Under the pieces are notes generated by a model. It saw nothing but the letters and a program-made list of their open reading frames with translations. It was not told where the DNA came from and did not search any database. This document shows, one piece after another, positions 3,158 to 36,499 of a stretch of 64,000 bases of DNA. Position 1 is the stretch's first letter; every line of letters starts with the position of its first letter. A program made the position numbers and the translations under genes. The stretch covers positions 1,625,127 through 1,689,126 of the forward strand of contig JBGAFV010000001.1 in assembly GCA_044227095.1 (NCBI GenBank), in the 5' to 3' direction. The stretch comes from Chitinophagaceae bacterium (GTDB taxonomy: Bacteria > Bacteroidota > Bacteroidia > Chitinophagales > Chitinophagaceae).

Positions 3158-3433
3158 TTATGGAGATACCAATGCATTTTCGTTGATCTCATTCTTTACT
3201 TCTTCAATAATATCATCCAAACCTGCATACCAGTCTAAATGCGGACTGGAAGCTTTACAACCACCGGCATGTTGAATGCATTGTGTATATTCCCATTGTT
3301 TGCCACAGCCGGGGCAACGTGCAGCCGTTGAAAATGTATCCCAAACTGTTCCGCAAGTGCATTGCCAGTATGCTTCCCCATCAGGCTCCCATTTACATTT
3401 TGGGCAGCAAATTTGAATATCATCTAAAGCCAT
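3158..3433 (-). CDS. zinc-ribbon small protein
   Basis: CCPKCKW...CTCG...CPGCGKQW gives multiple CxxC pairs. The start was chosen at MALDD. Confidence 0.4.
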   Translation of the reverse strand: MALDDIQICCPKCKWEPDGEAYWQCTCGTVWDTFSTAARCPGCGKQWEYTQCIQHAGGCKASSPHLDWYAGLDDIIEEVKNEINENALVSP

Positions 3434-12739: not shown

Positions 12740-12770
12740 TTATATTTCGCTTTCGCGAATAATAATATTT

Positions 12771-12852
12771 GAACGCAGATTTTTATGATGGTTAAGATGA
12801 TTATGGTTCATGTATCATAATCTTTTGGAAACAGTCATAATTATCTGCGTTC
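12771..12852. repeat. MITE-like element with terminal inverted repeats GAACGCAGATTTTTATGAT / ATCATAA(TT)ATCTGCGTTC
   Basis: The ends are reverse complements of each other, and related copies occur at 1258, 24803, 37231/37427, 51577 and 61500. Confidence 0.5.
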
Positions 12853-13039
12853 TTTTTTTATGGATGGATGGGCTGCAGATTCGCAGATTAATTTGTAACC
12901 ATCTCATAAACATATTTATGATAATCAGCGTCCATTAACCTACTTTTTTAACACATAGGCGCAGTAGTAACAATAGAAACATAATAGTTGTAAGCCTATT
13001 TGAAACTATGTTTCTATGGTGCTATGTAGTAAATATTGC

Positions 13040-13201
13040 CTGAACCAGGATTTATGGGATTAATGGATTCTTAGGATGCTATTGAAAACTCCTTAAACGC
13101 TGTAAAAAACTCACACAACTCTGTGGTAAAAGAAATAATCTATGCATCTGCGGCTAAAGTATATCATAAGCTATCATCATACTCATAAAAATCAGTGTTC
13201 C
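13040..13201. repeat. composite intergenic repeat (modules shared with 24803-24925 and 51577-52010)
   Basis: Contains AAAACTCCTTAAACGCTGTAAAAAACTCACACAACTCTGTGGTAAA, AATCTATGCATCTGCGGCTAA and ATCATAAAAATCAGTGTTCC modules. Confidence 0.5.
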
Positions 13202-29821: not shown

Positions 29822-31267
29822 TTATTCACCTTCCACTGCATTTTTTTCTTTCTTCCATGATCTGTGTTTGGCGCCATCCATCTTTACAATTTTTGGCGTA
29901 AACCTTCCTACAATGTCTACCAAGGATTTCTGAGATTGCATTACTACTTCAATATCCTTGTACGCAAAAGGCGATTCGTCTAATCCGCCACCAAGCAGTT
30001 TTACACCAAACTTTTTCAGTTCGTCTTTAAACTGTTTATCTGTTACAGATGCAATGGCACGTGTACGGCTCATTTTTCTTCCTGCACCATGCGATGCAGA
30101 ATTTACAGATGCAGCCTCTCCTTTACCTTTTACAATAAAACCATCTGCCGTCATAGAACCAGGTATAATACCTAATACATCTTTGCCTGCAGGTGTAGCA
30201 CCTTTACGATGAACAATCACATCACGCCCTTCCCATTTTTCTTTCCACGCAAAGTTGTGGTGGTTTTCTACCATCTTCATTGCTTTACGCCCTAATTGTT
30301 TGGCTATCTTGGCATGTATTACATGATGACATGCAGAAGCGTAATCACCCGCAAGGTTCATCGCATTCCAGTATTCTATACCTTCTTCTTCATCTAAACT
30401 TAACCATGCAAGGTTTTTTGCTTCTTGTGGTAAACGTCTTTTGCTAATAGCCAACTTTGTATAGTGGTTAGCAATGTTTGCACCCAATGCCCTGGAACCA
30501 GAATGCGTTAGAAAACCAACATACTTTCCTGCACTAATACCAAGCATTGCATCTTTTTCTGCCACTTCAATAATACCAAACTCAGCAAAGTGGTTACCAG
30601 AACCAGAAGAACCCAATTGTTTCCATACACGGCCATGCATTTTCTTAAGCAATGGCAATTGGTAAAACAGTTCATTGTCCATCACTTCATGATCAGCTGC
30701 TCTATCAAACTGCGCACCGCTTCCAAATAATGTGGCTTCACTTAATTCTCTCGCAAAAAATGCTTCCTTGTCTGTAAGATCTTTTGGGTTGATATCAAAA
30801 ATACTTAAACACATTCTGCAACCAATATCCACGCCTACTCCATAAGGAATAACCGAGTTCTCTGTCGCCAGCACTCCACCTATCGGTAATCCATAGCCGC
30901 TGTGGGCGTCTGGCATTAATGCACCGGCTATACTCACGGGAAGTTTTGCTGCCTGGTACATCTGGTGCATAGCGCCTTCTTCAATATGTTCCTGCCCAAA
31001 TACATTAAACTGTATACCGTTTTGGTTCAGCGATATTTCTGCACCCTCTGTTGCAGCCTTAGGTATTAATTGCTGCGCAATCAAACCCAGCACAGCATCA
31101 TTTTCATATTCTACCGGCGCAGCCAGTATTTTTTTTAATAGTTCCATCACTTCTTCTTTTCCACTGTGTTTATAATTCTTTTCCATCACATTCATAGCAA
31201 TGCTTACTACCGGTCCTTCCGGGAAGCCAATTGCCCTGATTTCTTTTCCTGATATTTTTAGTTTCAT
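29822..31267 (-). CDS. rtcB: RNA-splicing ligase RtcB (3'-phosphate/5'-OH RNA ligase)
   Basis: Full-length 481 aa. Metal and GTP-binding motifs PDAHSGYG, GSGNHF, NHHNFAW, SHGAGR and the catalytic His region are present. Confidence 0.9.
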   Translation of the reverse strand: MKLKISGKEIRAIGFPEGPVVSIAMNVMEKNYKHSGKEEVMELLKKILAAPVEYENDAVLGLIAQQLIPKAATEGAEISLNQNGIQFNVFGQEHIEEGAMHQMYQAAKLPVSIAGALMPDAHSGYGLPIGGVLATENSVIPYGVGVDIGCRMCLSIFDINPKDLTDKEAFFARELSEATLFGSGAQFDRAADHEVMDNELFYQLPLLKKMHGRVWKQLGSSGSGNHFAEFGIIEVAEKDAMLGISAGKYVGFLTHSGSRALGANIANHYTKLAISKRRLPQEAKNLAWLSLDEEEGIEYWNAMNLAGDYASACHHVIHAKIAKQLGRKAMKMVENHHNFAWKEKWEGRDVIVHRKGATPAGKDVLGIIPGSMTADGFIVKGKGEAASVNSASHGAGRKMSRTRAIASVTDKQFKDELKKFGVKLLGGGLDESPFAYKDIEVVMQSQKSLVDIVGRFTPKIVKMDGAKHRSWKKEKNAVEGE

Positions 31268-31410
31268 ACCCCAACCCCTAAAGGGGCTATTTAAGTTTTA
31301 ATAATATTTTTTTTGATACCAGCATTTGTTTTCATGGCGGCATCGTTGTGTCACTCACTTGTATAGTAAATCAATTATCAACGCAGACACTTAAATTAAT
31401 AATCATTTTT

Positions 31411-31447
31411 ATTAACATCCGGCATCCTGTTAATGCCGGATGTTAAT
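31411..31447 (-). promoter_or_regulatory. 14-bp perfect inverted repeat immediately after the SPFH stop codon, upstream of rtcB
   Basis: ATTAACATCCGGCAT-cctgtta-ATGCCGGATGTTAAT. It is not followed by a clean U-tract, so it may be an attenuator or processing/regulatory hairpin between the SPFH gene and rtcB. Confidence 0.4.
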
Positions 31448-32554
31448 TTAACCATTCTTATTTGCCGGTACAAAGATCTGCTTCAACTGTTCTACCAAAG
31501 CACCGTTGCCACTTACACTGATATTACTGATTTTATCTGCAATCTTCTCTACGTATTCCATCTCTTTCAATTTCCACAACATCGCATTTTCTTCCATCAA
31601 TTTAGCAGTGTTTAGCAAACTACGGGTGCTGGCTGTTTCTTCACGGCGCATGATTGTATTTGCCTGCGCTTTCTTTTCTGCAATCAATACCTGGTTCATA
31701 ATCTCTTTCACATCGCCCGGCAAAATAATATCGCGTATACCAAAGCCGGTTACTTCCACACCCAATGCTGCAGCTTCGGCTTTTGCCCGCTGCAATATAT
31801 AAGGTGCGATGGTTTCTTTTTTTTCCAGCAATTCATCAAAGCTGAAACCGGCAATGTATTCACGCAAAGCCAATTGAAAGGCTACATACAATTGCTTGTC
31901 ATAGTCTTTGTTTTGCAACAAAGCTTTTTCAATGTCAGCCACTTTGTATTGCGCCCATGCATTAATACGCAAAGCCGCTTTGTCTTTGGTCAGGATTTCC
32001 TGGCCGTTTACTTCCAGTTGCTGCTGACGGATATCAACTTTGCCTACATGAATAGCGATGCTGTTCTTCCACCATGTATAAATGCCACTTTGCAAGGTTT
32101 GCACATACTTACCGTCTACAAACAATAGTGCTTTTTCATAACTCTCTACACTATAAGTACGCACATAGCCAATTACAGGCCGGCTCAACAAAACAGTGCG
32201 ATCAATGTTTTCAGTGATCTCAATCTTACTGATGTCTGCATGTACAAATTGGTAGTCAATCATTCCCTTCCAATATGTATAACGGCCGGCATTCAATACT
32301 AGCTTCAGCAAACCATTTTCGTATTGCAAAACAATTTCATTGTCTTTTACATCCACTACATGCAATGCATCAGCCAGCATAGTATCTTGCAAAAGAATAT
32401 TCAGTTCTATAGGAGCAACAAATGGTTTATTCAAGTCATAAACGATGGCTGTTTCATTCCACAACCAGTATTTACCTTCTTTCAGCATTCGCTGATAAGT
32501 TCCATTCTTAAACACCAAACCAACCTGGTAGGCATTTACTTTTACCTGTTTCAT
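31448..32554 (-). CDS. SPFH/band-7 (slipin/prohibitin-like) domain protein
   Basis: Band-7 core ...GFGIRDIILPGDVKEIMNQVLIAEKKAQANTIMRREE... plus an N-terminal extension. The start is at MKQVKV. Confidence 0.7.
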   Translation of the reverse strand: MKQVKVNAYQVGLVFKNGTYQRMLKEGKYWLWNETAIVYDLNKPFVAPIELNILLQDTMLADALHVVDVKDNEIVLQYENGLLKLVLNAGRYTYWKGMIDYQFVHADISKIEITENIDRTVLLSRPVIGYVRTYSVESYEKALLFVDGKYVQTLQSGIYTWWKNSIAIHVGKVDIRQQQLEVNGQEILTKDKAALRINAWAQYKVADIEKALLQNKDYDKQLYVAFQLALREYIAGFSFDELLEKKETIAPYILQRAKAEAAALGVEVTGFGIRDIILPGDVKEIMNQVLIAEKKAQANTIMRREETASTRSLLNTAKLMEENAMLWKLKEMEYVEKIADKISNISVSGNGALVEQLKQIFVPANKNG

Positions 32555-32937
32555 TTTCTTATATTTAAAGTTTTCAATTATTTGTAAAAAAGTCAGCACT
32601 GCCTGCACTCCGTAATCACGGAAGCGGGTTTTAGAAAATGTTTTTTGTAACAGTTTACCAGGGAGTGTTCGCCTGATAAAGTGAAACGAGCTGCATTCCT
32701 GCTGCCAGCCTGCAGATGCTTACTGAGTTGCACACTTCCAAAACTTTCCCTGTCAAAAAAGGTACTCGTTCTTTCAAGTCTTTCTTGCTGCATTGATGCA
32801 GCAAAAAAGAGTCATAGGCCGTGTGCCCGCAGGCAGCACCAACTTTTTTTATCTGGTCACCTTTTTTAAGAAGCGGTGGACTTCTCCTTTTGAAGCATTA
32901 TCAGTGCTTTGCTAGACCATTTAGCTTCACCGCCAAA

Positions 32938-33052
32938 GGCGATGACAGGATTCGAACCTGCATATTTCTGTTGCTCTACCACTGAGCTATTCCGTTTGCA
33001 ACGGAAAGAGGAATTGAACCCCTGACCCACAGGTTATGGAGGGCATTGCACC
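32938..33052 (-). ncRNA. candidate tRNA-mimic ncRNA (YrlA/Y-RNA-like tRNA-like module) upstream of the SPFH-rtcB genes
   Basis: The minus strand reads ...AGGGG-TTCAATT-CCTCT (T-arm) TTCCGTT-GCA-AACGGAA (acceptor-like 7-bp stem closed by a 3-nt loop) TA-GCTC-AGTGGTAGA-GAGC (D-arm with G18G19)... The ends GGTGCAATG / CATCGCC can pair. There is no anticodon arm. A second T-arm-like hairpin CAGG-TTCGAAT-CCTG lies near the 3' end. Confidence 0.45.
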
Positions 33053-33230
33053 ATTGAAATAACAGCATACAGAAAGTTTACTAACTCTGCACTATGGTGT
33101 TTTTGAAACACACATCCGGTTTACTGTCAACAGGCAGTTGCCCTTCTTGCCGTTAAGCAAGCTTTTGTGTTGAACTAGTCAACAATTTATTTATCTAAAG
33201 AATTTTCGGAGCATTGTATTATGGAAGAAG

Positions 33231-33962
33231 TTAATCATCCAGCCTATCCAAAATCTGCGGTAGCGGAATATTGTACAATGGATTTCTTTCCCTGTCTCTT
33301 TGTTCCCTGTAGCGCCATTTGTAACTATCACCTAAAATTTTAGCCTGACGTGCGTCATACTTATTCCATTCAAGGTAATTGCTAATTTCTTCGAGGCGTT
33401 TTTCAATGTCCACATCTTTTATCTTGATTTTATCAATTATGTTTGGACTTACACGCAATACAAAACGCCAGGGCTCATTAAAGACATATCTTTTAACCGG
33501 TTGCTTTTTCCAGTCATGCTCCCAAACCTCATGAAAACATTGCATTTCGCTATCAGAAAAGGCAAACCTTTTAAGCTCATATGAATATGGCTTTAGCAAC
33601 TGCTGCCCTTTAATAACATAGATCTTCCTTCCATACTTTCTTTTCCTGATGCGGAAGTCTTTTCTGTAACTCCAGGCGCTGGTATTTATTTTTTTCAAAA
33701 TAGCCTCAAAGAACTCTGCCTGTTTGCTTCTTGCTACGTCATCACGTAAAACAAAACAACGTTTCCATCCTTTTTGTACAGGTGGCAATAAGGGTTCCCA
33801 ACCTAAATTATTTTTTCTTGCCCACAACCCACGTTGTTCTTTCCATAATTGAATCAACTGTTTATCAAAATCTTTATACTGCATTCTTTTTTTCTGCCTG
33901 GCAGTACGCAGGCGGTAGCAGAGAATATCTTCTCCGTGCTGTTGAATAAGTTTTGTGTCCAT
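33231..33962 (-). CDS. hypothetical basic protein (243 aa, R/K-rich), no recognisable domain
   Basis: Clean ORF and ATG start. Its 5' UTR contains a D-arm-like hairpin GGTGCAATGGCACC (33990-34010). Confidence 0.5.
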   Translation of the reverse strand: MDTKLIQQHGEDILCYRLRTARQKKRMQYKDFDKQLIQLWKEQRGLWARKNNLGWEPLLPPVQKGWKRCFVLRDDVARSKQAEFFEAILKKINTSAWSYRKDFRIRKRKYGRKIYVIKGQQLLKPYSYELKRFAFSDSEMQCFHEVWEHDWKKQPVKRYVFNEPWRFVLRVSPNIIDKIKIKDVDIEKRLEEISNYLEWNKYDARQAKILGDSYKWRYREQRDRERNPLYNIPLPQILDRLDD

Positions 33963-34102
33963 AATGATTTATTTGGTTTCGATCGGTAACTCCGGTGCCA
34001 TTGCACCATTCCTTTCCGTATTGTCATTATGAACCCTGAAGTTTTTTTCATTTCGCTAAGGTTATTTTAATAAATTATTTTTAATCTTTCAGAAAGCTCG
34101 TT

Positions 34103-34588
34103 TCACTGCACCACTTTATTAGCACAGCTAGAACTTGCAAATGCTTCTGGCTTGGCTTTAAAAGCAAAACCCATCCCCATTATATAACCCATCGCTTCTT
34201 TCAAAGCATCATTGCTTTTAAAATTTGGATTGGTGTTGATATCGGCATGTACTTCCATTTCTACATCATATAAAGTGAATAGCCTGCACAATTCATAGGC
34301 AATGTCAATACTCTTCGATACTTCCAGCAACATCCTTTGCTTTATGCTCATCTTCTGTTGCGTAACTTCATTGCTGATATACATGAAACCACCTTTTCCT
34401 TTTCTTATAAAAACAATTACGGTTGCAAATTCTGTTTCCCGCCCTTTAACCTGGCTATCGGTACCAATACATACTTTCAAATCATTGCCCAATTGTTTTT
34501 CACGAACAATAGCCGAACGCACTTCATCAACAATAGATTGCTGCAACCTTTGTCCGTTCAGTTTTCTCCATTTTTGTTGCTGTTCCAT
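34103..34588 (-). CDS. YkuK/DUF458-family RNase H-like protein
   Basis: IGTDSQVKGRETEFATVIVF...NTNPNFKSNDAL resembles the DUF458 predicted RNase-H-fold nuclease. The start is at MEQQQKW, and the longer upstream extension overlaps tRNA-Phe. Confidence 0.5.
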   Translation of the reverse strand: MEQQQKWRKLNGQRLQQSIVDEVRSAIVREKQLGNDLKVCIGTDSQVKGRETEFATVIVFIRKGKGGFMYISNEVTQQKMSIKQRMLLEVSKSIDIAYELCRLFTLYDVEMEVHADINTNPNFKSNDALKEAMGYIMGMGFAFKAKPEAFASSSCANKVVQ

Positions 34589-34604
34589 TGTTTTGTTTTT
34601 AATG

Positions 34605-34679
34605 TGGTGCCTTAAGGAATCGAACCTTAATTGCTGGTTCTTCAAACCAGTGCAATAGAACCATCTCTGCCAAAGCACC
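34605..34679 (-). tRNA. tRNA-Phe (GAA)
   Basis: Manual fold: acceptor GGTGCTT/AGGCACC, D-arm GCAG...TTGC, anticodon stem CTGGT/ACCAG with loop TTGAAGA, T-arm TAAGG-TTCGATT-CCTTA, discriminator A. Confidence 0.7.
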
Positions 34680-34684
34680 ATTTT

Positions 34685-34776
34685 GTCTGAACCAGGATTT
34701 TGAAGGATTTTTTGGATTAATAGGATGTACACTTCTCTGCTAAATCTTTTAAATCATTTTAAATCCTGGTTTAGAT
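34685..34776. repeat. ~95-bp palindromic unit immediately 5' of tRNA-Phe (family also at 35110-35204, 35465-35637, 13040-13080)
   Basis: Terminal inverted repeats GTCTGAACCAGGATTTTGAAGGATTT ... AAATCCTGGTTTAGAT. Confidence 0.6.
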
Positions 34777-34876
34777 TTTTTTTGTTATTAACTGTAGTAA
34801 CACTATTAAGCATCGTTGCGTCGCACACTTCAGCTTTTTGTTATTTATTCATCATATCTCCCAATATAGTCTTCTT

Positions 34877-34948
34877 GCGGATGAAGAAAGGTTCGAACTT
34901 TCAACCTGGGGCTTAACAAGCCACTGCTCTGCCATTGAGCTATTCATC
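34877..34948 (-). tRNA. tRNA-Asn (GTT)
   Basis: Manual fold: acceptor GGATGAA/TTCATCC, D-arm GCTC-AATGGCA-GAGC, anticodon loop TTGTTAA (one mismatch in the anticodon stem), T-arm GAAAG-TTCGAAC-CTTTC, discriminator G. Confidence 0.6.
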
Positions 34949-34951
34949 CAT

Positions 34952-35025
34952 GAGTCGCGCAGAAGATTCGAACTTCTTTATTCCGGTTTGCAGCCGGATG
35001 CATACAGCCATGTCTGCCAGCGCGA
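34952..35025 (-). tRNA. tRNA-Cys (GCA), unusual D-arm
   Basis: Acceptor GTCGCGC/GCGCGAC, anticodon stem TCCGG/CCGGA with loop CTGCAAA, T-arm AGAAG-TTCGAAT-CTTCT, discriminator T. The D-region is 21 nt with a non-canonical stem. Confidence 0.55.
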
Positions 35026-35033
35026 CTTTTATT

Positions 35034-35109
35034 GTTGGCCCGGTGAGACTCGAACTCACAACTCCCGGTGTAAAAGACCGGTACTCTGCATCCAATTGAG
35101 TTACGAACC
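35034..35109 (-). tRNA. tRNA-Lys (TTT)
   Basis: Acceptor TGGTTCG/CGGGCCA (two G-U pairs), D-arm ACTC...GAGT, anticodon stem CCGGT/ACCGG with loop CTTTTAC, T-arm GTGAG-TTCGAGT-CTCAC, discriminator A. Confidence 0.65.
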
Positions 35110-35204
35110 AGTGTCTGAACCAGGATTTTGAAGGATTTTTCAGATTAATAAGATGTAAATTTTTCTGACGAATCTTTTTAATCCTTTTAAATCCTGGTTC
35201 AGAT
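35110..35204. repeat. ~95-bp palindromic unit immediately 5' of tRNA-Lys
   Basis: GTGTCTGAACCAGGATTTTGAAGGATTT ... AAATCCTGGTTCAGAT. It is ~85% identical to the 34685-34776 unit. Confidence 0.6.
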
Positions 35205-35211
35205 ATTTTTT

Positions 35212-35306
35212 GTACGACTTTCAGAATCGAACTGAATACGCCAAACTTATGTTTACCTCTCAGAAAGAGCAGGAAGCTTAGCATGTTGCCATTACACCCA
35301 GCCGTA
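35212..35306 (-). ncRNA. 95-nt tRNA-like element with canonical acceptor, D-arm and T-arm but no anticodon stem-loop (tRNA pseudogene or tRNA-mimic RNA)
   Basis: Acceptor TACGGCT/AGTCGTA, D-arm GTGT-AATGGCA-ACAT, T-arm TTCAG-TTCGATT-CTGAA. The 46-nt internal segment contains no 5-bp/7-nt-loop anticodon arm in any register (checked manually). Confidence 0.4.
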
Positions 35307-35309
35307 TTG

Positions 35310-35381
35310 GTTGACTTCGGGACTTGAACCCTGTTCTTCACATTCACAGTGTGACACTTTACCAGTTAAGCTAAAGCCAAC
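35310..35381 (-). tRNA. tRNA-His (GTG)-like, with G-1:C73 and irregular T-arm
   Basis: G-1 + TTGGCTT / AAGTCAA + C73 gives the 8-bp His-type acceptor. D-arm GCTT-AACTGGTA-AAGT, anticodon stem TCACA/TGTGA with loop CTGTGAA. The T-stem has only 3-4 bp (GGG-TTCAAGT-CCC). Confidence 0.5.
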
Positions 35382-35386
35382 GTTTG

Positions 35387-35459
35387 TTGTTAAGGATAGA
35401 TTCGAACTATCATCATCAGTGTCAAAGACTGATATGCTGAGCCATTGCACCACTTAACA
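35387..35459 (-). tRNA. tRNA-Gln (TTG)
   Basis: U1-A72 acceptor TGTTAAG/CTTAACA, D-arm GTGC-AATGGCTCA-GCAT, anticodon stem TCAGT/ACTGA with loop CTTTGAC, T-arm GATAG-TTCGAAT-CTATC. Confidence 0.7.
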
Positions 35460-35464
35460 ATTTG

Positions 35465-35637
35465 TCTTAACCACGATTCATAAGATTTATGGGATTGATA
35501 CGATATGTCTAACTAATCTTTTCAATCATTTTTAATCCCAGTTCAGACATTTTTCATATTTGGTTTAATGGTTCTGCACTCAATTTTTTTATTTAATCCT
35601 GACAATCCGTTTAATCTTACAAATCATGGTTCAGACA
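35465..35637. repeat. two degenerate copies of the tRNA-upstream palindromic unit, 5' of tRNA-Gln
   Basis: ...AATCTTTTCAATCATTTTTAATCCCAGTTCAGACATTTTT... and ...AATCCTGACAATCCGTTTAATCTTACAAATCATGGTTCAGACAATTTT. Confidence 0.45.
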
Positions 35638-35892
35638 ATTTTGGAAAAGCATCCCCGCTGCATCTCGCGGGGAGTGCTTATGTTCCTCCTTTCTGCAACT
35701 AATGATTTAGCCTCCTCCCGACCTCCTCCAATAGAGGAGGCCATCAACGCACAAGGCCAGCTTTTCACAAAGCCATAATTATTTTATTCTTTTTTTATCA
35801 ATTTACTGATCAGTTGAAGGGCAAACCGCATCATAAATACCATCACTATAAATTTCATTATGCCTGTTTTATATTTTTATAAAAGCGGGCAT

Positions 35893-36206: not shown

Positions 36207-36243
36207 TAAAAAACCCCGCAATCTCTTGCGGGGCTTATATTTC
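36207..36243 (-). terminator. intrinsic terminator-like hairpin (stronger on minus strand)
   Basis: CCCCGCAAtctcTTGCGGGG with a T-run on the minus strand. Confidence 0.45.
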
Positions 36244-36499
36244 AGCGATTTTGTTTTTCAACTAATCTGCAGCACTACATGCCCCGCGAACGCTATAGTC
36301 TCCTTTGGGACTAAAGCCATTCAGTGATTCAATATGTATCATTGCGGTGCGCTGCATAAATTTATTTTACATCGCAAAGATGCAATTATTTTTTTGATAC
36401 TGCCAAATGTTTTTATAAAAATTTTTAAAATAAATTTTTTATATGCGTGCAGTAGTATAAAATGAAAGTAGAATTATAAGGAGCGTAAAGAAAAGTTGT

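What the first reader, a model, noticed from the sequence alone, without database searches (positions are those of the whole stretch)
34605..35640. tRNA array in which each transcription unit is preceded by a ~95-bp palindromic repeat, and several tRNAs are non-canonical
Units bounded by inverted repeats GTCTGAACCAGGATTTTGAAGGATTT...AAATCCTGGTT(C/T)AGAT sit immediately 5' of tRNA-Phe (34685-34776), tRNA-Lys (35110-35204) and, in degenerate form, tRNA-Gln (35465-35637). A related fragment is at 13040-13080. They could be tRNA promoter/UP elements or MITEs that target tRNA upstream regions. Within the array, tRNA-His has a 3-4 bp T-stem, tRNA-Cys has a 21-nt D-region and tRNA-Asn has a mismatched anticodon stem. 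Such irregularities are unusual for essential tRNAs, so this may be a redundant or accessory tRNA island.
Basis: seen in the sequence. Interest (0 to 1): 0.5.

Follow-up and report, generated by a model that had tools for sequence, protein, structure and literature searches.

The report
Palindromic mobile-type repeats inside accessory tRNA array
The ~95-bp palindromes are copies of a widespread, apparently undescribed hairpin-forming repeat family that has settled in the spacers of an accessory tRNA gene cluster attached to an RNA-repair operon; they do not look like tRNA promoters.

Summary
Six tRNA genes (Gln-His-…-Lys-Cys-Asn-…-Phe) lie on the minus strand. Two ~92-102-nt palindromes (87% identical), one degenerate copy and one solo half-copy sit in their spacers. 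A further half-copy is at 13035-13078.

The palindromes belong to a large dispersed family. Each arm is TTGTCTGAAC followed by 3-4 tandem ~9-nt (C)AGGATT units, around a variable core. I found it in more than 119 loci from Poribacteria, Chitinophagaceae, Sphingobacteriaceae, Cytophagales, Ignavibacteria and Chloroflexi. About 95% of copies are intergenic and nearly all fold as hairpins. None of 119 outside loci has a tRNA within 400 nt. No Rfam family, paper or partner transposase was found.

Most orthologous arrays lack the elements, and no Bacteroidota -7 promoter box lies in them. They therefore behave as MITE/REP-like insertions. The spacer 5' of tRNA-Lys is filled in 4 of 10 arrays that carry tRNA-Lys, by different subfamilies.

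The array is conserved and variable in content across Chitinophagaceae. It always sits upstream of YkuK-(AAA)-SPFH-RtcB, which resembles the stress-induced tRNA arrays of cyanobacteria. The short tRNA-His T-stem is conserved in all seven arrays with tRNA-His. The tRNA-Asn mismatch is specific to this genome.

The array also contains an undetected, covarying ~95-nt tRNA-like RNA at 35212-35306.

The parts
34604..34679 (-). tRNA-Phe(GAA), last gene of the array. The YkuK start codon follows 14 nt downstream.
   Evidence: ARAGORN; Rfam tRNA 58.5 bits
34683..34785 (.). Palindromic element copy A (core 34685-34776). It ends 5 nt before the 5' end of tRNA-Phe.
   Evidence: Direct repeat D1 and inverted repeat I5. 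Sense-strand hairpin -21.3 kcal/mol, z -5.0. Family-profile hits E 4e-10 and 0.0078. Present in two independent assemblies of the same species, L121 and L122.
34877..34949 (-). tRNA-Asn(GUU) with a U.C mismatch at 28:42. The mismatch is specific to this genome.
   Evidence: alignment with six orthologues
34952..35026 (-). tRNA-Cys(GCA) with an irregular D-stem. It is present in this array only.
   Evidence: (50.1 bits); no tRNA-Cys in the other arrays
35034..35110 (-). tRNA-Lys(UUU)
35111..35211 (.). Palindromic element copy B (core 35113-35204). It fills the spacer between the X RNA and tRNA-Lys, ending 2 nt from tRNA-Lys.
   Evidence: D1 and I1, 40-nt arms. Sense-strand hairpin -36.4 kcal/mol, z -8.3. 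Profile hits E 3.8e-08 and 1.6e-05. The same spacer is filled in L124, L142 and L145 and empty in L123, L125, L126, L128, L129 and L144.
35212..35306 (-). X RNA: an undetected ~95-nt tRNA-shaped RNA. It has a 7-bp acceptor stem, D arm and T arm, and an extended 'anticodon' arm with the near-invariant core CTTTCTGAGAGG.
   Evidence: Fold. Conserved after tRNA-His (after tRNA-Ile in L123) in 8 other arrays. 28 pairs, 10 with compensatory changes, in a 5-sequence alignment. Missed by ARAGORN and Rfam.
35309..35381 (-). tRNA-His(GUG) with G-1 and a 3-4-bp T-stem
   Evidence: (50.5 bits). The same short T-stem occurs in all 7 arrays that have tRNA-His; their Rfam scores are 38.7-42.2 bits.
35386..35459 (-). 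tRNA-Gln(UUG), first gene of the array
35464..35548 (.). Degenerate palindromic element copy C, 4 nt upstream of tRNA-Gln
   Evidence: Profile hits E 0.0029 and 0.14. Weak hairpin, z -2.2.
35594..35644 (-). Solo arm module D (TTGTCTGAACCATGATTTGTAAGATTAAACGGATTGTCAGGATT)
   Evidence: Best profile hit in the window, E 1.3e-10. No partner arm, and it does not fold. By eye, a degenerate counterpart sits at the same place in L124.
35652..35673 (-). Conserved terminator-like hairpin (CCCCGCGAGATGCAGCGGGG + TGCTTTTCC) upstream of the array
   Evidence: The same sequence precedes the arrays in L123, L124, L125, L128 and L129.
13035..13078 (+). Solo arm module of the same family, in the intergenic region upstream of an amidase gene
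   Evidence: profile hit E 2e-09
12762..12861 (.). ~100-nt palindrome of similar build (GAACGCAGATT..GATG..). It may be a diverged relative.
   Evidence: Inverted repeat I2; sequence. Not detected by the family profile.
29822..34591 (-). Downstream genes on the same strand: YkuK/RNaseH_like (34103-34591), a 243-aa protein with no Pfam match, SPFH/Band_7 and RtcB
   Evidence: Pfam; synteny in L123-L130 and L142-L144

Best explanation
The ~95-bp units are non-autonomous, MITE/REP-like 'foldback' repeats that have inserted into the short spacers of a tRNA operon. They are not tRNA promoters.

Each arm is a module: TTGTCTGAAC plus 3-4 tandem ~9-11-nt (C)AGGATT units. Two inverted arms flank a short, lineage-specific core.

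The host locus is an accessory tRNA array of variable content: Gln-His-X-Lys-Cys-Asn-Phe. It is probably co-transcribed on the minus strand with a YkuK-hyp-SPFH-RtcB RNA-repair/translational-stress operon.

In a dense array an insertion survives only in a spacer, so every copy necessarily abuts a tRNA.

Shown: family membership, dispersal, intergenic restriction, hairpin potential, presence/absence among orthologous arrays, and conservation and synteny of the array.

Inferred: when transcribed, the units form long hairpins in the precursor (-21 to -36 kcal/mol) that are removed during tRNA processing with little cost. They spread by an unidentified enzyme acting in trans that recognises the conserved end and the GGATT iterons. 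The array supplements housekeeping tRNAs under translational stress or tRNA damage.
For: 1. A profile built from 237 outside arms recovers exactly the window's eight modules.

One genome can hold several loci: 8 in Poribacteria OZ242381.1 and 6 in Chitinophaga niastensis.

3. Bases that were not part of the search pattern are conserved: TT before GTCTGAAC at 77-83%, and a periodic CAGGATT.

4. Of 242 arms, 231 lie outside ORFs of >=110 aa. Their distribution follows the amount of intergenic space.

5. Among 58 full elements the median fold z-score is -9.1, and 97% are below -3.

6. No tRNA lies within 400 nt of an element in 119 loci totalling 887 kb.

7. Among 12 other syntenic arrays, the elements occur inside the array only in L124, L142 and L145. 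In L125 and L130 they sit in other spacers of the same operon, 0-5 nt after stop codons. L123, L126-L129, L143 and L144 have none.

8. No TAnnTTTG box lies in any unit on the sense strand.

9. Array content varies from 6 to about 17 tRNAs around a fixed order, always upstream of YkuK and with SPFH and RtcB downstream.

10. Published accessory tRNA arrays are linked to and co-regulated with rtcB (PMC8421152). The Anabaena TrcR regulon also contains an AAA ATPase, a slipin and GNATs (PMC10272220).
Against: No target-site duplication could be recognised.

No transposase or RAYT gene was found between or beside arms, so mobility rests on comparative patterns only.

Seven of the eight modules in 64 kb sit within about 1 kb.

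The spacer 5' of tRNA-Lys is filled in 4 of the 10 arrays that carry tRNA-Lys, by elements with different arm spacers (AAAA/TGAA in the window, GGGG in L142/L145). This points to a hot spot or to selection for a hairpin there, which a purely neutral insertion model does not predict.

An 18-nt end conserved across phyla is unusual for REP-type repeats.

Redundancy of the array tRNAs was not tested.
Confidence: 0.7

Rival explanations
1. The hairpins have been co-opted as RNA-level signals within the operon. They could act as RNase III/E processing sites that split the precursor into Gln-His-X, Lys-Cys-Asn and Phe+mRNA segments. They could also act as stabilisers or pause sites that set the relative dosage of those segments. 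They would still be repeat-derived.
For: The sense-strand hairpins are strong (z -8.3 and -5.0).

An element recurs exactly 5' of tRNA-Lys in 4 of the 10 arrays that carry tRNA-Lys. These come from different subfamilies, and their arms stay complementary.

Elements recur in other spacers of the same operon in L125 and L130.

From my own knowledge, Correia and REP elements in other bacteria are known to act in this way.
Against: Most orthologous arrays work without any element.

Copy C and module D are decaying.

The family at large shows no operon or tRNA preference.

In Poribacteria the two arms share the motif but are poorly complementary in their spacers: 0.58 identity within an element against 0.45 between elements. 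That fits constraint at the DNA or protein-binding level better than constraint on an RNA stem.
Confidence: 0.18
2. The units are promoters or UP/regulator-binding elements that define separate tRNA transcription units, with the tandem GGATT iterons bound by a transcription factor.
For: The units lie immediately 5' of three tRNAs.

Iterons with a ~9-11-nt period look like protein-binding arrays.

Anabaena tRNA arrays are controlled through short repeats in their promoters (PMC8421152).
Against: There is no TAnnTTTG -7 box in any unit on the sense strand, and sigma-70-type matches are not enriched.

Only 2-5 nt separate the unit from the mature tRNA end.

The units are absent from most orthologous arrays.

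The family is dispersed in all intergenic classes, including between convergent genes.

The Anabaena TrcR site (TGTAGTAT-like) is unrelated in sequence.
Confidence: 0.04
3. The units are site-specific recombination sites (integron attC-like) or ends of larger cargo-carrying elements, so that the tRNA segments between them are mobile cassettes.
For: The ends GTCTGAAC...GTTCAGAC resemble attC R''/R' boxes (RYYYAAC/GTTRRRY).

The elements are imperfect palindromes of variable length (58-295 nt).

In L031 a GNAT gene is flanked by stacks of modules.

tRNA content differs between arrays.
Against: The core has an extra base compared with the attC boxes.

No integrase and no one-site-per-cassette array is present.

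Genes lying between distant arms are unrelated housekeeping or repeat proteins.

Most loci carry a single element.
Confidence: 0.05

Closest known systems
REP/BIME elements and REPINs (Enterobacteria, Pseudomonas)
   Same: Multi-copy, intergenic, hairpin-forming palindromes of about 100 nt when paired. They are often found inside operons just after stop codons. They tend to cluster and nest.
   Different: REPs are GC-rich, about 35 nt long, begin with GTAG, are species-specific and are tied to RAYT genes. The elements here are AT-rich. Their arms are built from TTGTCTGAAC plus tandem GGATT iterons. The end is conserved across phyla, and no RAYT was seen.
Correia elements (Neisseria MITEs)
   Same: 100-150-nt inverted-repeat elements. 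They are co-transcribed within operons and form hairpins that can be processed. Their presence varies between strains at the same locus.
   Different: Correia elements make a TA duplication, are confined to Neisseria and have different terminal repeats. No duplication was recognisable here.
Foldback (FB) transposons of eukaryotes
   Same: The inverted arms are themselves made of tandem short subrepeats. Arms vary in length through changes in module number, as in the stacked F-F-F...R-R-R copies in L031 and L041.
   Different: FB transposons are eukaryotic and much larger, and some carry transposase genes. The resemblance is in structure only.
Long/accessory tRNA arrays (L-arrays; Anabaena trn operon, PMC8421152 and PMC10272220)
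   Same: A dense tRNA cluster with roughly one gene per amino acid. Content is fluid between relatives and some tRNAs are sub-canonical. The neighbourhood is rich in RNA-repair and translation genes (rtcB, AAA ATPase, slipin/SPFH, GNAT).
   Different: There are only 6 tRNAs plus X here (up to about 17 in relatives), against 20-43 in L-arrays. The locus is chromosomal and syntenic within one family. YkuK lies directly downstream. The TrcR-type site (ATACTACACTTGTATTAC / TGTAGTAT) was not looked for here and differs from the repeat motif described here.
Bacterial Y RNAs with tRNA-like domains (YrlA; PMC4201824)
   Same: The X RNA has tRNA-like acceptor, D and T arms plus a long conserved helix. 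It lies in an RtcB locus, and in L124 it is near a Ro60 (TROVE) gene.
   Different: In YrlA the RNA termini lie in the Ro-binding stem and the 'acceptor' is closed by a loop. X has normal tRNA topology. No Rfam match was found.

Membership tests
MITE (miniature inverted-repeat transposable element) | Small, non-coding, with terminal inverted repeats | tested here: met
   Units are 92-102 nt with 25-40-nt inverted arms. Family elements range from 58 to 295 nt.
MITE (miniature inverted-repeat transposable element) | Many dispersed copies per genome | tested here: met
   More than 119 loci. There are 8 loci in one Poribacteria chromosome, 6 in C. niastensis, and 8 arm modules at 2 places in this window. 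The copy number in the source genome as a whole was not measurable.
MITE (miniature inverted-repeat transposable element) | Target-site duplication flanking each copy | tested here: inconclusive
   No consistent direct repeat at the flanks. Flanks are TT...AA or extend the palindrome.
MITE (miniature inverted-repeat transposable element) | A parent insertion sequence with the same ends that encodes a transposase | tested here: not met
   Neighbours of solo arms share no transposase. The recurring families are sequences rich in TPR-like or WD40-like repeats, as read by eye and not Pfam-scanned. Regions between distant arms encode unrelated genes. Only 8-kb windows were searched, not whole genomes.
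MITE (miniature inverted-repeat transposable element) | Filled versus empty orthologous sites | tested here: met
   The X|Lys or Met|Lys spacer is filled in the window, L124, L142 and L145. It is empty in L123, L125, L126, L128, L129 and L144.
REP/REPIN | Conserved 5' GTAG and an associated RAYT (Y1 transposase) gene flanked by repeats | tested here: not met
   The ends are TTGTCTGAAC. No Y1-like ORF lies between arm pairs 0.6-3 kb apart.
tRNA promoter / UP element | Promoter consensus at the correct distance from the start, on the sense strand | tested here: not met
   No TAnnTTTG in any unit on the minus strand. Sigma-70-type matches are not above shuffles.
tRNA promoter / UP element | Conserved presence upstream of the orthologous genes | tested here: not met
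   Absent from the arrays of L123, L125, L126-L130, L143 and L144.
tRNA promoter / UP element | Primary transcript 5' ends at the unit | not testable with these tools
   Requires dRNA-seq or 5'-RACE.
Accessory tRNA array (tRNA array unit / L-array) | High tRNA density with many genes (>=20 genes at >=2 per kb in the definition of PMC4758250) | tested here: not met
   Density is met: 6 tRNAs plus X in 856 nt. Number is not: 6-7 here and at most about 17 in L124.
Accessory tRNA array (tRNA array unit / L-array) | Content fluid between relatives; linkage to RNA-repair/translation genes such as rtcB | tested here: met
   literature.
Accessory tRNA array (tRNA array unit / L-array) | Redundant with housekeeping tRNA genes elsewhere; induced under stress | not testable with these tools
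   Only 64 kb of the 5.18-Mb source contig is available.
Integron attC site | R''/R' boxes RYYYAAC...GTTRRRY, one site per cassette in a co-oriented array next to intI | tested here: not met
   The ends are GTCTGAAC/GTTCAGAC, with one extra base. Most loci have a single element. No integrase is seen in the neighbourhoods.
Any Rfam family | Covariance-model match at the gathering score | tested here: not met
   Only tRNA hits in the window. At the E-value threshold there were only spurious miRNA-hairpin hits. No hits on elements in 18 outside loci.
YrlA-type Y RNA (for the X RNA) | Termini paired in the Ro60-binding stem; order T arm - acceptor-like loop - D arm; GNCGAAN0-1G motif | tested here: not met
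   X has the order acceptor-D-long arm-T-acceptor. The family description is from PMC4201824. No Rfam hit.

The most novel reading that the evidence does not exclude
Two things here could be new.

(a) The TTGTCTGAAC-(CAGGATTnn)n foldback family. Its ~18-nt end and iteron array are conserved from Poribacteria to Bacteroidota and Chloroflexi without any visible transposase. It may be moved or maintained by an unrecognised, widely shared DNA-binding or recombination system, and it may have a hot spot 5' of tRNA-Lys.

(b) The host locus may be a Bacteroidota translational-stress module. Its parts would be a leader peptide with a terminator, an accessory tRNA array, a new tRNA-shaped RNA (X) with an extended conserved 'anticodon' arm, and YkuK-AAA-SPFH-RtcB (with Ro60 in some relatives). 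X could be the RNA partner or decoy of the repair machinery.
Probability: 0.3. Interest if true: 0.7.

Novelty: new member of a known kind. Interest (0 to 1): 0.45.

Why it matters
The finding splits into two ordinary kinds of thing, each with an undescribed example.

First, the palindromes are dispersed hairpin repeats. The family has no Rfam entry and no match in the searchable literature. Its ends are conserved across phyla, which raises the question of what recognises them.

Second, the tRNA cluster extends the 'stress-induced accessory tRNA array plus RtcB' idea from cyanobacteria to Chitinophagaceae. Here the operon is compact and syntenic. It also carries a covarying tRNA-like RNA that standard tRNA finders miss. 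That makes the link between spare tRNAs and RNA repair directly testable in culturable soil Bacteroidota such as Lacibacter luteus.

Practically, these repeats break short-read assemblies (contigs L121 and L122 end near them) and can be mistaken for regulatory sites.

Tried and rejected
- **Rfam.** I searched at gathering and E-value thresholds on the window and on 22 outside loci. Only tRNAs, one SRP RNA and spurious miRNA-hairpin hits came back.
- **Literature.** A search for the motif sequence found only two chance hits, and a search for MITE/REP papers on these taxa found nothing relevant.
- **Partner transposase.** I clustered ORFs beside 66 solo arms and listed ORFs between arm pairs 0.6-3 kb apart. 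They are metabolic enzymes, sequences that by eye are rich in TPR-like or WD40-like repeats, and other ORFs with no obvious transposase. None was scanned against Pfam.
- **Viral contigs.** Only 3 of 11 hits are true family members, so phages are not an obvious vehicle.
- **tRNA targeting as a family trait.** Rejected: no tRNA lies within 400 nt of an element in 119 loci.
- **Promoter reading.** Rejected.
- **attC reading.** Rejected on core sequence and context.
- **Intrinsic terminators for the tRNA operon.** The T-runs follow the hairpins on the plus (antisense) strand only. Across the family the flanks are T-rich on the 5' side and A-rich on the 3' side.
- **X as an ordinary tRNA with an intron.** ARAGORN with intron and pseudogene options does not call it in the window. 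In L143 it is called as an odd 94-nt tRNA with a 4-base anticodon.
- **Source genome.** It could not be retrieved beyond short Logan contigs, and its name is not on record. A genome-wide tRNA and repeat census was therefore impossible.
Full report
**What is in the sequence**

The region 34604-35459 holds six tRNA genes, all on the minus strand. In order of transcription they are Gln(UUG), His(GUG), Lys(UUU), Cys(GCA), Asn(GUU) and Phe(GAA) (ARAGORN; Rfam tRNA 50-65 bits).

Two 102-nt stretches, 34684-34785 and 35112-35213, are 87% identical. Each is an imperfect palindrome. A degenerate palindrome lies at 35464-35548 and a solo arm at about 35594-35644.

The 15-mer at the arm tip occurs 12 times at <=3 mismatches against 2.1 expected. 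All six near-exact copies are in the array or at 13039. The 'tRNA' coordinates in the finding are the coordinates of the repeats.

**The tRNA irregularities**

- tRNA-His has G-1 and C73, but its T-stem has only three G-C pairs plus an A.G pair. The same short T-stem is present in all seven arrays that carry tRNA-His, and their Rfam scores are low (38.7-42.2 bits). It is an inherited feature of the array copy, not random decay.
- tRNA-Asn carries a U.C mismatch at 28:42. The six orthologues lack it, so it is a change specific to this lineage.
- tRNA-Cys has an irregular D-stem and occurs in this array only. By my own reading of the sequence, its 21-nt D region is not abnormal in length.

**The palindromes belong to a large family**

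Most come from Candidatus Poribacteria. Others come from Chitinophagaceae, Mucilaginibacter and Daejeonella, Pontibacter and Spirosoma, Haliscomenobacter, Ignavibacteria, Caldilinea, a Dehalococcoidia MAG and a Bacillota MAG. A few hits, in Prochlorococcus, Pseudoxanthomonas, Ottowia and Lentimicrobiaceae, look like chance matches.

Bases outside the search pattern are conserved. TT precedes GTCTGAAC in 77-83% of arms. After the tip come three or four (C)AGGATT units with a period of about 9-11 nt.

- About half of the arms have an inverted partner within 450 nt. Elements are 58-295 nt long with a mode near 142 nt.
- Cores are lineage-specific and shared within a genome, for example in C. niastensis and in Poribacteria.
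- In L041, L010 and L031 the arms are stacks of modules (F-F-F...R-R-R), like foldback elements.
- Of 58 full elements, 97% fold far better than shuffled sequence, with a median z of -9.1.
- A profile made only from outside arms finds exactly eight modules in the window, at E from 1e-10 to 0.14.

**What the family is not**

- No Rfam family matches it.
- No paper in the searchable library contains the motif in a relevant context.
- It is not tied to tRNAs. In 119 loci totalling 887 kb the nearest tRNA is 435 nt from an element.
- It is about 95% intergenic and spread roughly in proportion to intergenic space. It lies between tandem, divergent and convergent genes alike.
- I found no target-site duplication.
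- I found no partner transposase or RAYT gene.
- In Poribacteria the two arms share the motif more than they complement each other in the spacers: 0.58 identity within an element against 0.45 between elements. This suggests the iterons are constrained as binding sites on DNA. In Chitinophaga the arms are nearly perfect complements.

**The host locus**

The protein just downstream of tRNA-Phe is a YkuK/RNaseH_like protein (PF04308). It is followed by a 243-aa protein with no Pfam match, an SPFH protein and RtcB.

Homologues of YkuK led to syntenic loci. The X-RNA scan added four more. In every one a tRNA array lies directly upstream of YkuK. The arrays share a backbone order, (Asp/Glu)-Gln-His-...-Lys-Asn-...-Phe. 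Their content varies from 6 to about 17 tRNAs.

Downstream genes vary among AAA ATPase, SPFH, RlaP, PcfJ, WYL, RtcB and, in L124, a Ro60 (TROVE) gene.

This matches published accessory tRNA arrays. Those have neighbourhoods enriched in RNA-processing genes and are co-regulated with rtcB under translational stress (PMC8421152). The Anabaena TrcR regulon lists the trn array, RtcB, an AAA ATPase, a slipin with a hypothetical protein, and GNATs (PMC10272220). That is nearly the same gene set as is clustered here.

Variable content among close relatives implies that housekeeping copies exist elsewhere. That is an inference, and I could not test it from 64 kb.

**Elements within orthologous arrays**

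- Inside the arrays, elements occur in the window (three sites), in L124 (between tRNA-Met and tRNA-Lys) and in L142 and L145 (between X and tRNA-Lys).
- L123, L125, L126-L130, L143 and L144 have none inside the array.
- L125 and L130 carry elements in other spacers of the same operon, starting 0-5 nt after stop codons.
- Copy A is present in two independent assemblies of the same species.

So the units are dispensable for the array. A promoter should be conserved in place, and these are not. The sense strand of the units contains no Bacteroidota -7 box.

The tight abutment to tRNA 5' ends has a simple cause. Array spacers are only 2-10 nt long, so any tolerated insertion touches tRNAs on one or both sides. 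In L124 the element lies 5 nt from tRNA-Met and 6 nt from tRNA-Lys.

Two points are not explained by neutral insertion. Seven of the window's eight modules sit within about 1 kb. The site 5' of tRNA-Lys is filled in four of the ten arrays that carry tRNA-Lys, by elements whose arm spacers differ (AAAA/TGAA against GGGG). This suggests repeated insertion at a hot spot or selection for a hairpin there.

**Most likely mechanism**

The units are non-autonomous foldback/MITE-like repeats. They are probably spread in trans by something that recognises TTGTCTGAAC and the GGATT iterons. They survive only in spacers. Within this operon they are most likely transcribed as part of the tRNA precursor. There they fold (-36 and -21 kcal/mol in the sense strand) and are trimmed away during tRNA maturation.

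A co-opted role in processing or in setting dosage between segments is possible; I give it 0.18. A promoter role is unlikely (0.04), as is a recombination-site role (0.05).

**Other findings inside the flagged interval**

The 95-nt gap between tRNA-His and copy B is not empty. It encodes a tRNA-shaped RNA, which I call X (35212-35306, minus strand). X has a 7-bp acceptor stem, a D arm, a T arm, and a 10-11-bp 'anticodon' stem. That stem is extended by a second helix whose core, CTTTCTGAGAGG, is nearly invariant.

X follows tRNA-His in seven other arrays and follows tRNA-Ile in L123. Of its 28 pairs, 10 show compensatory changes among five sequences. Its topology differs from that of YrlA Y RNAs.

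Upstream of the arrays lie a conserved small hydrophobic ORF (MKFIVMVFM.RF...) and a conserved terminator-like hairpin. In L125 the first tRNA-like gene (Rfam tRNA hit, L125 2417-2489) starts only a few nucleotides after that hairpin. The array is therefore probably read from further upstream, through a regulated terminator. This is a lead, not a result.

**Verdict**

Both components are new members of known kinds. Interest is moderate. The cross-phylum conservation of the repeat end and the X RNA are the parts most worth following up.

Noticed in passing
window 35212-35306 (-); L123 2311-2412; L124 1374-1472; L125 2691-2792; L130 3614-3714; L142 ~2730-2830; L143 3556-3649; L144 ~1100-1200; L145 ~3300-3400: X RNA, a conserved ~95-nt tRNA-shaped RNA. 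It has an extended 'anticodon' arm with the near-invariant core CTTTCTGAGAGG. In seven of the eight other arrays it lies right after tRNA-His; in L123 it follows tRNA-Ile. 10 of its 28 pairs covary among five sequences. ARAGORN and Rfam miss it in the window, and ARAGORN calls it an odd tRNA with anticodon 'ttct' in L143. It may be a partner or decoy RNA of the RtcB/Ro60 locus.
   Followed up: partly
window 35783-35857 (-); L123 1706-1798; L128 2364-2456; L129 2313-2402; L125 2201-2329: A conserved small hydrophobic ORF (MKFIVMVFM(I/M)RFA.(E/Q)LISK..., 24-42 aa) lies upstream of the tRNA arrays. A strong terminator precedes it, and the conserved hairpin at window 35652-35673 follows it. The GGAGG...CTCC segment could form an alternative pairing, so this may be a leader-peptide attenuator controlling the array. 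A small membrane toxin is another possibility.
   Followed up: partly
window 36264-36356 (-); L130 2604-2696; L123 ~1270-1365: A second conserved ~30-aa ORF or small RNA (..IHIE..N.FSPKGDY.V.GA..). It is followed by the terminator CCCCGCAAGAGATTGCGGGG (window 36211-36236).
   Followed up: no
L123 2682-2752; L143 4162-4235: tRNAs with four-base anticodons (tcaa, ccaa) occupy the last position of related arrays, right after tRNA-Phe. These are candidates for frameshift-suppressor or non-decoding tRNAs.
   Followed up: no
L123 1966-2037; L124 905-977; L125 2417-2489: An extra low-scoring tRNA-like gene (Rfam 47-51 bits, not called by ARAGORN) opens the arrays in relatives. In the window its place is taken by the degenerate palindromes at 35464-35644.
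   Followed up: no
L041 345-763; L010 7053-7413; L031 3402-3854 and 4557-4940: Super-palindromes in which each arm is a stack of 3-5 diverged modules (F-F-F...R-R-R). In L031 two such stacks flank an ORF that looks GNAT-like by eye (not Pfam-tested). They could arise by nested insertion into hairpin tips or by tandem growth of the arms.
   Followed up: partly
L124 4594-8486; L129 5139-6948: Relatives add PcfJ, a WYL-WCX regulator and Ro60 (TROVE, weak vWA match) in L124, or two RlaP genes (L129), to the same tRNA-YkuK-RtcB locus. This marks the locus as a variable RNA-repair island.
   Followed up: no
window 12762-12861: A ~100-nt palindrome lies 23 nt after the acyl-CoA dehydrogenase stop codon. 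Its build is similar (GAACGCAGATT, then GATG/GATT units), but the family profile does not detect it. It may belong to a sister family.
   Followed up: no
L052 7067-7983: A Poribacteria variant whose arms carry tandem CAGGAAAGA 9-mers instead of CAGGATTnn. This suggests that CAGGA is the constrained core of the iteron.
   Followed up: no
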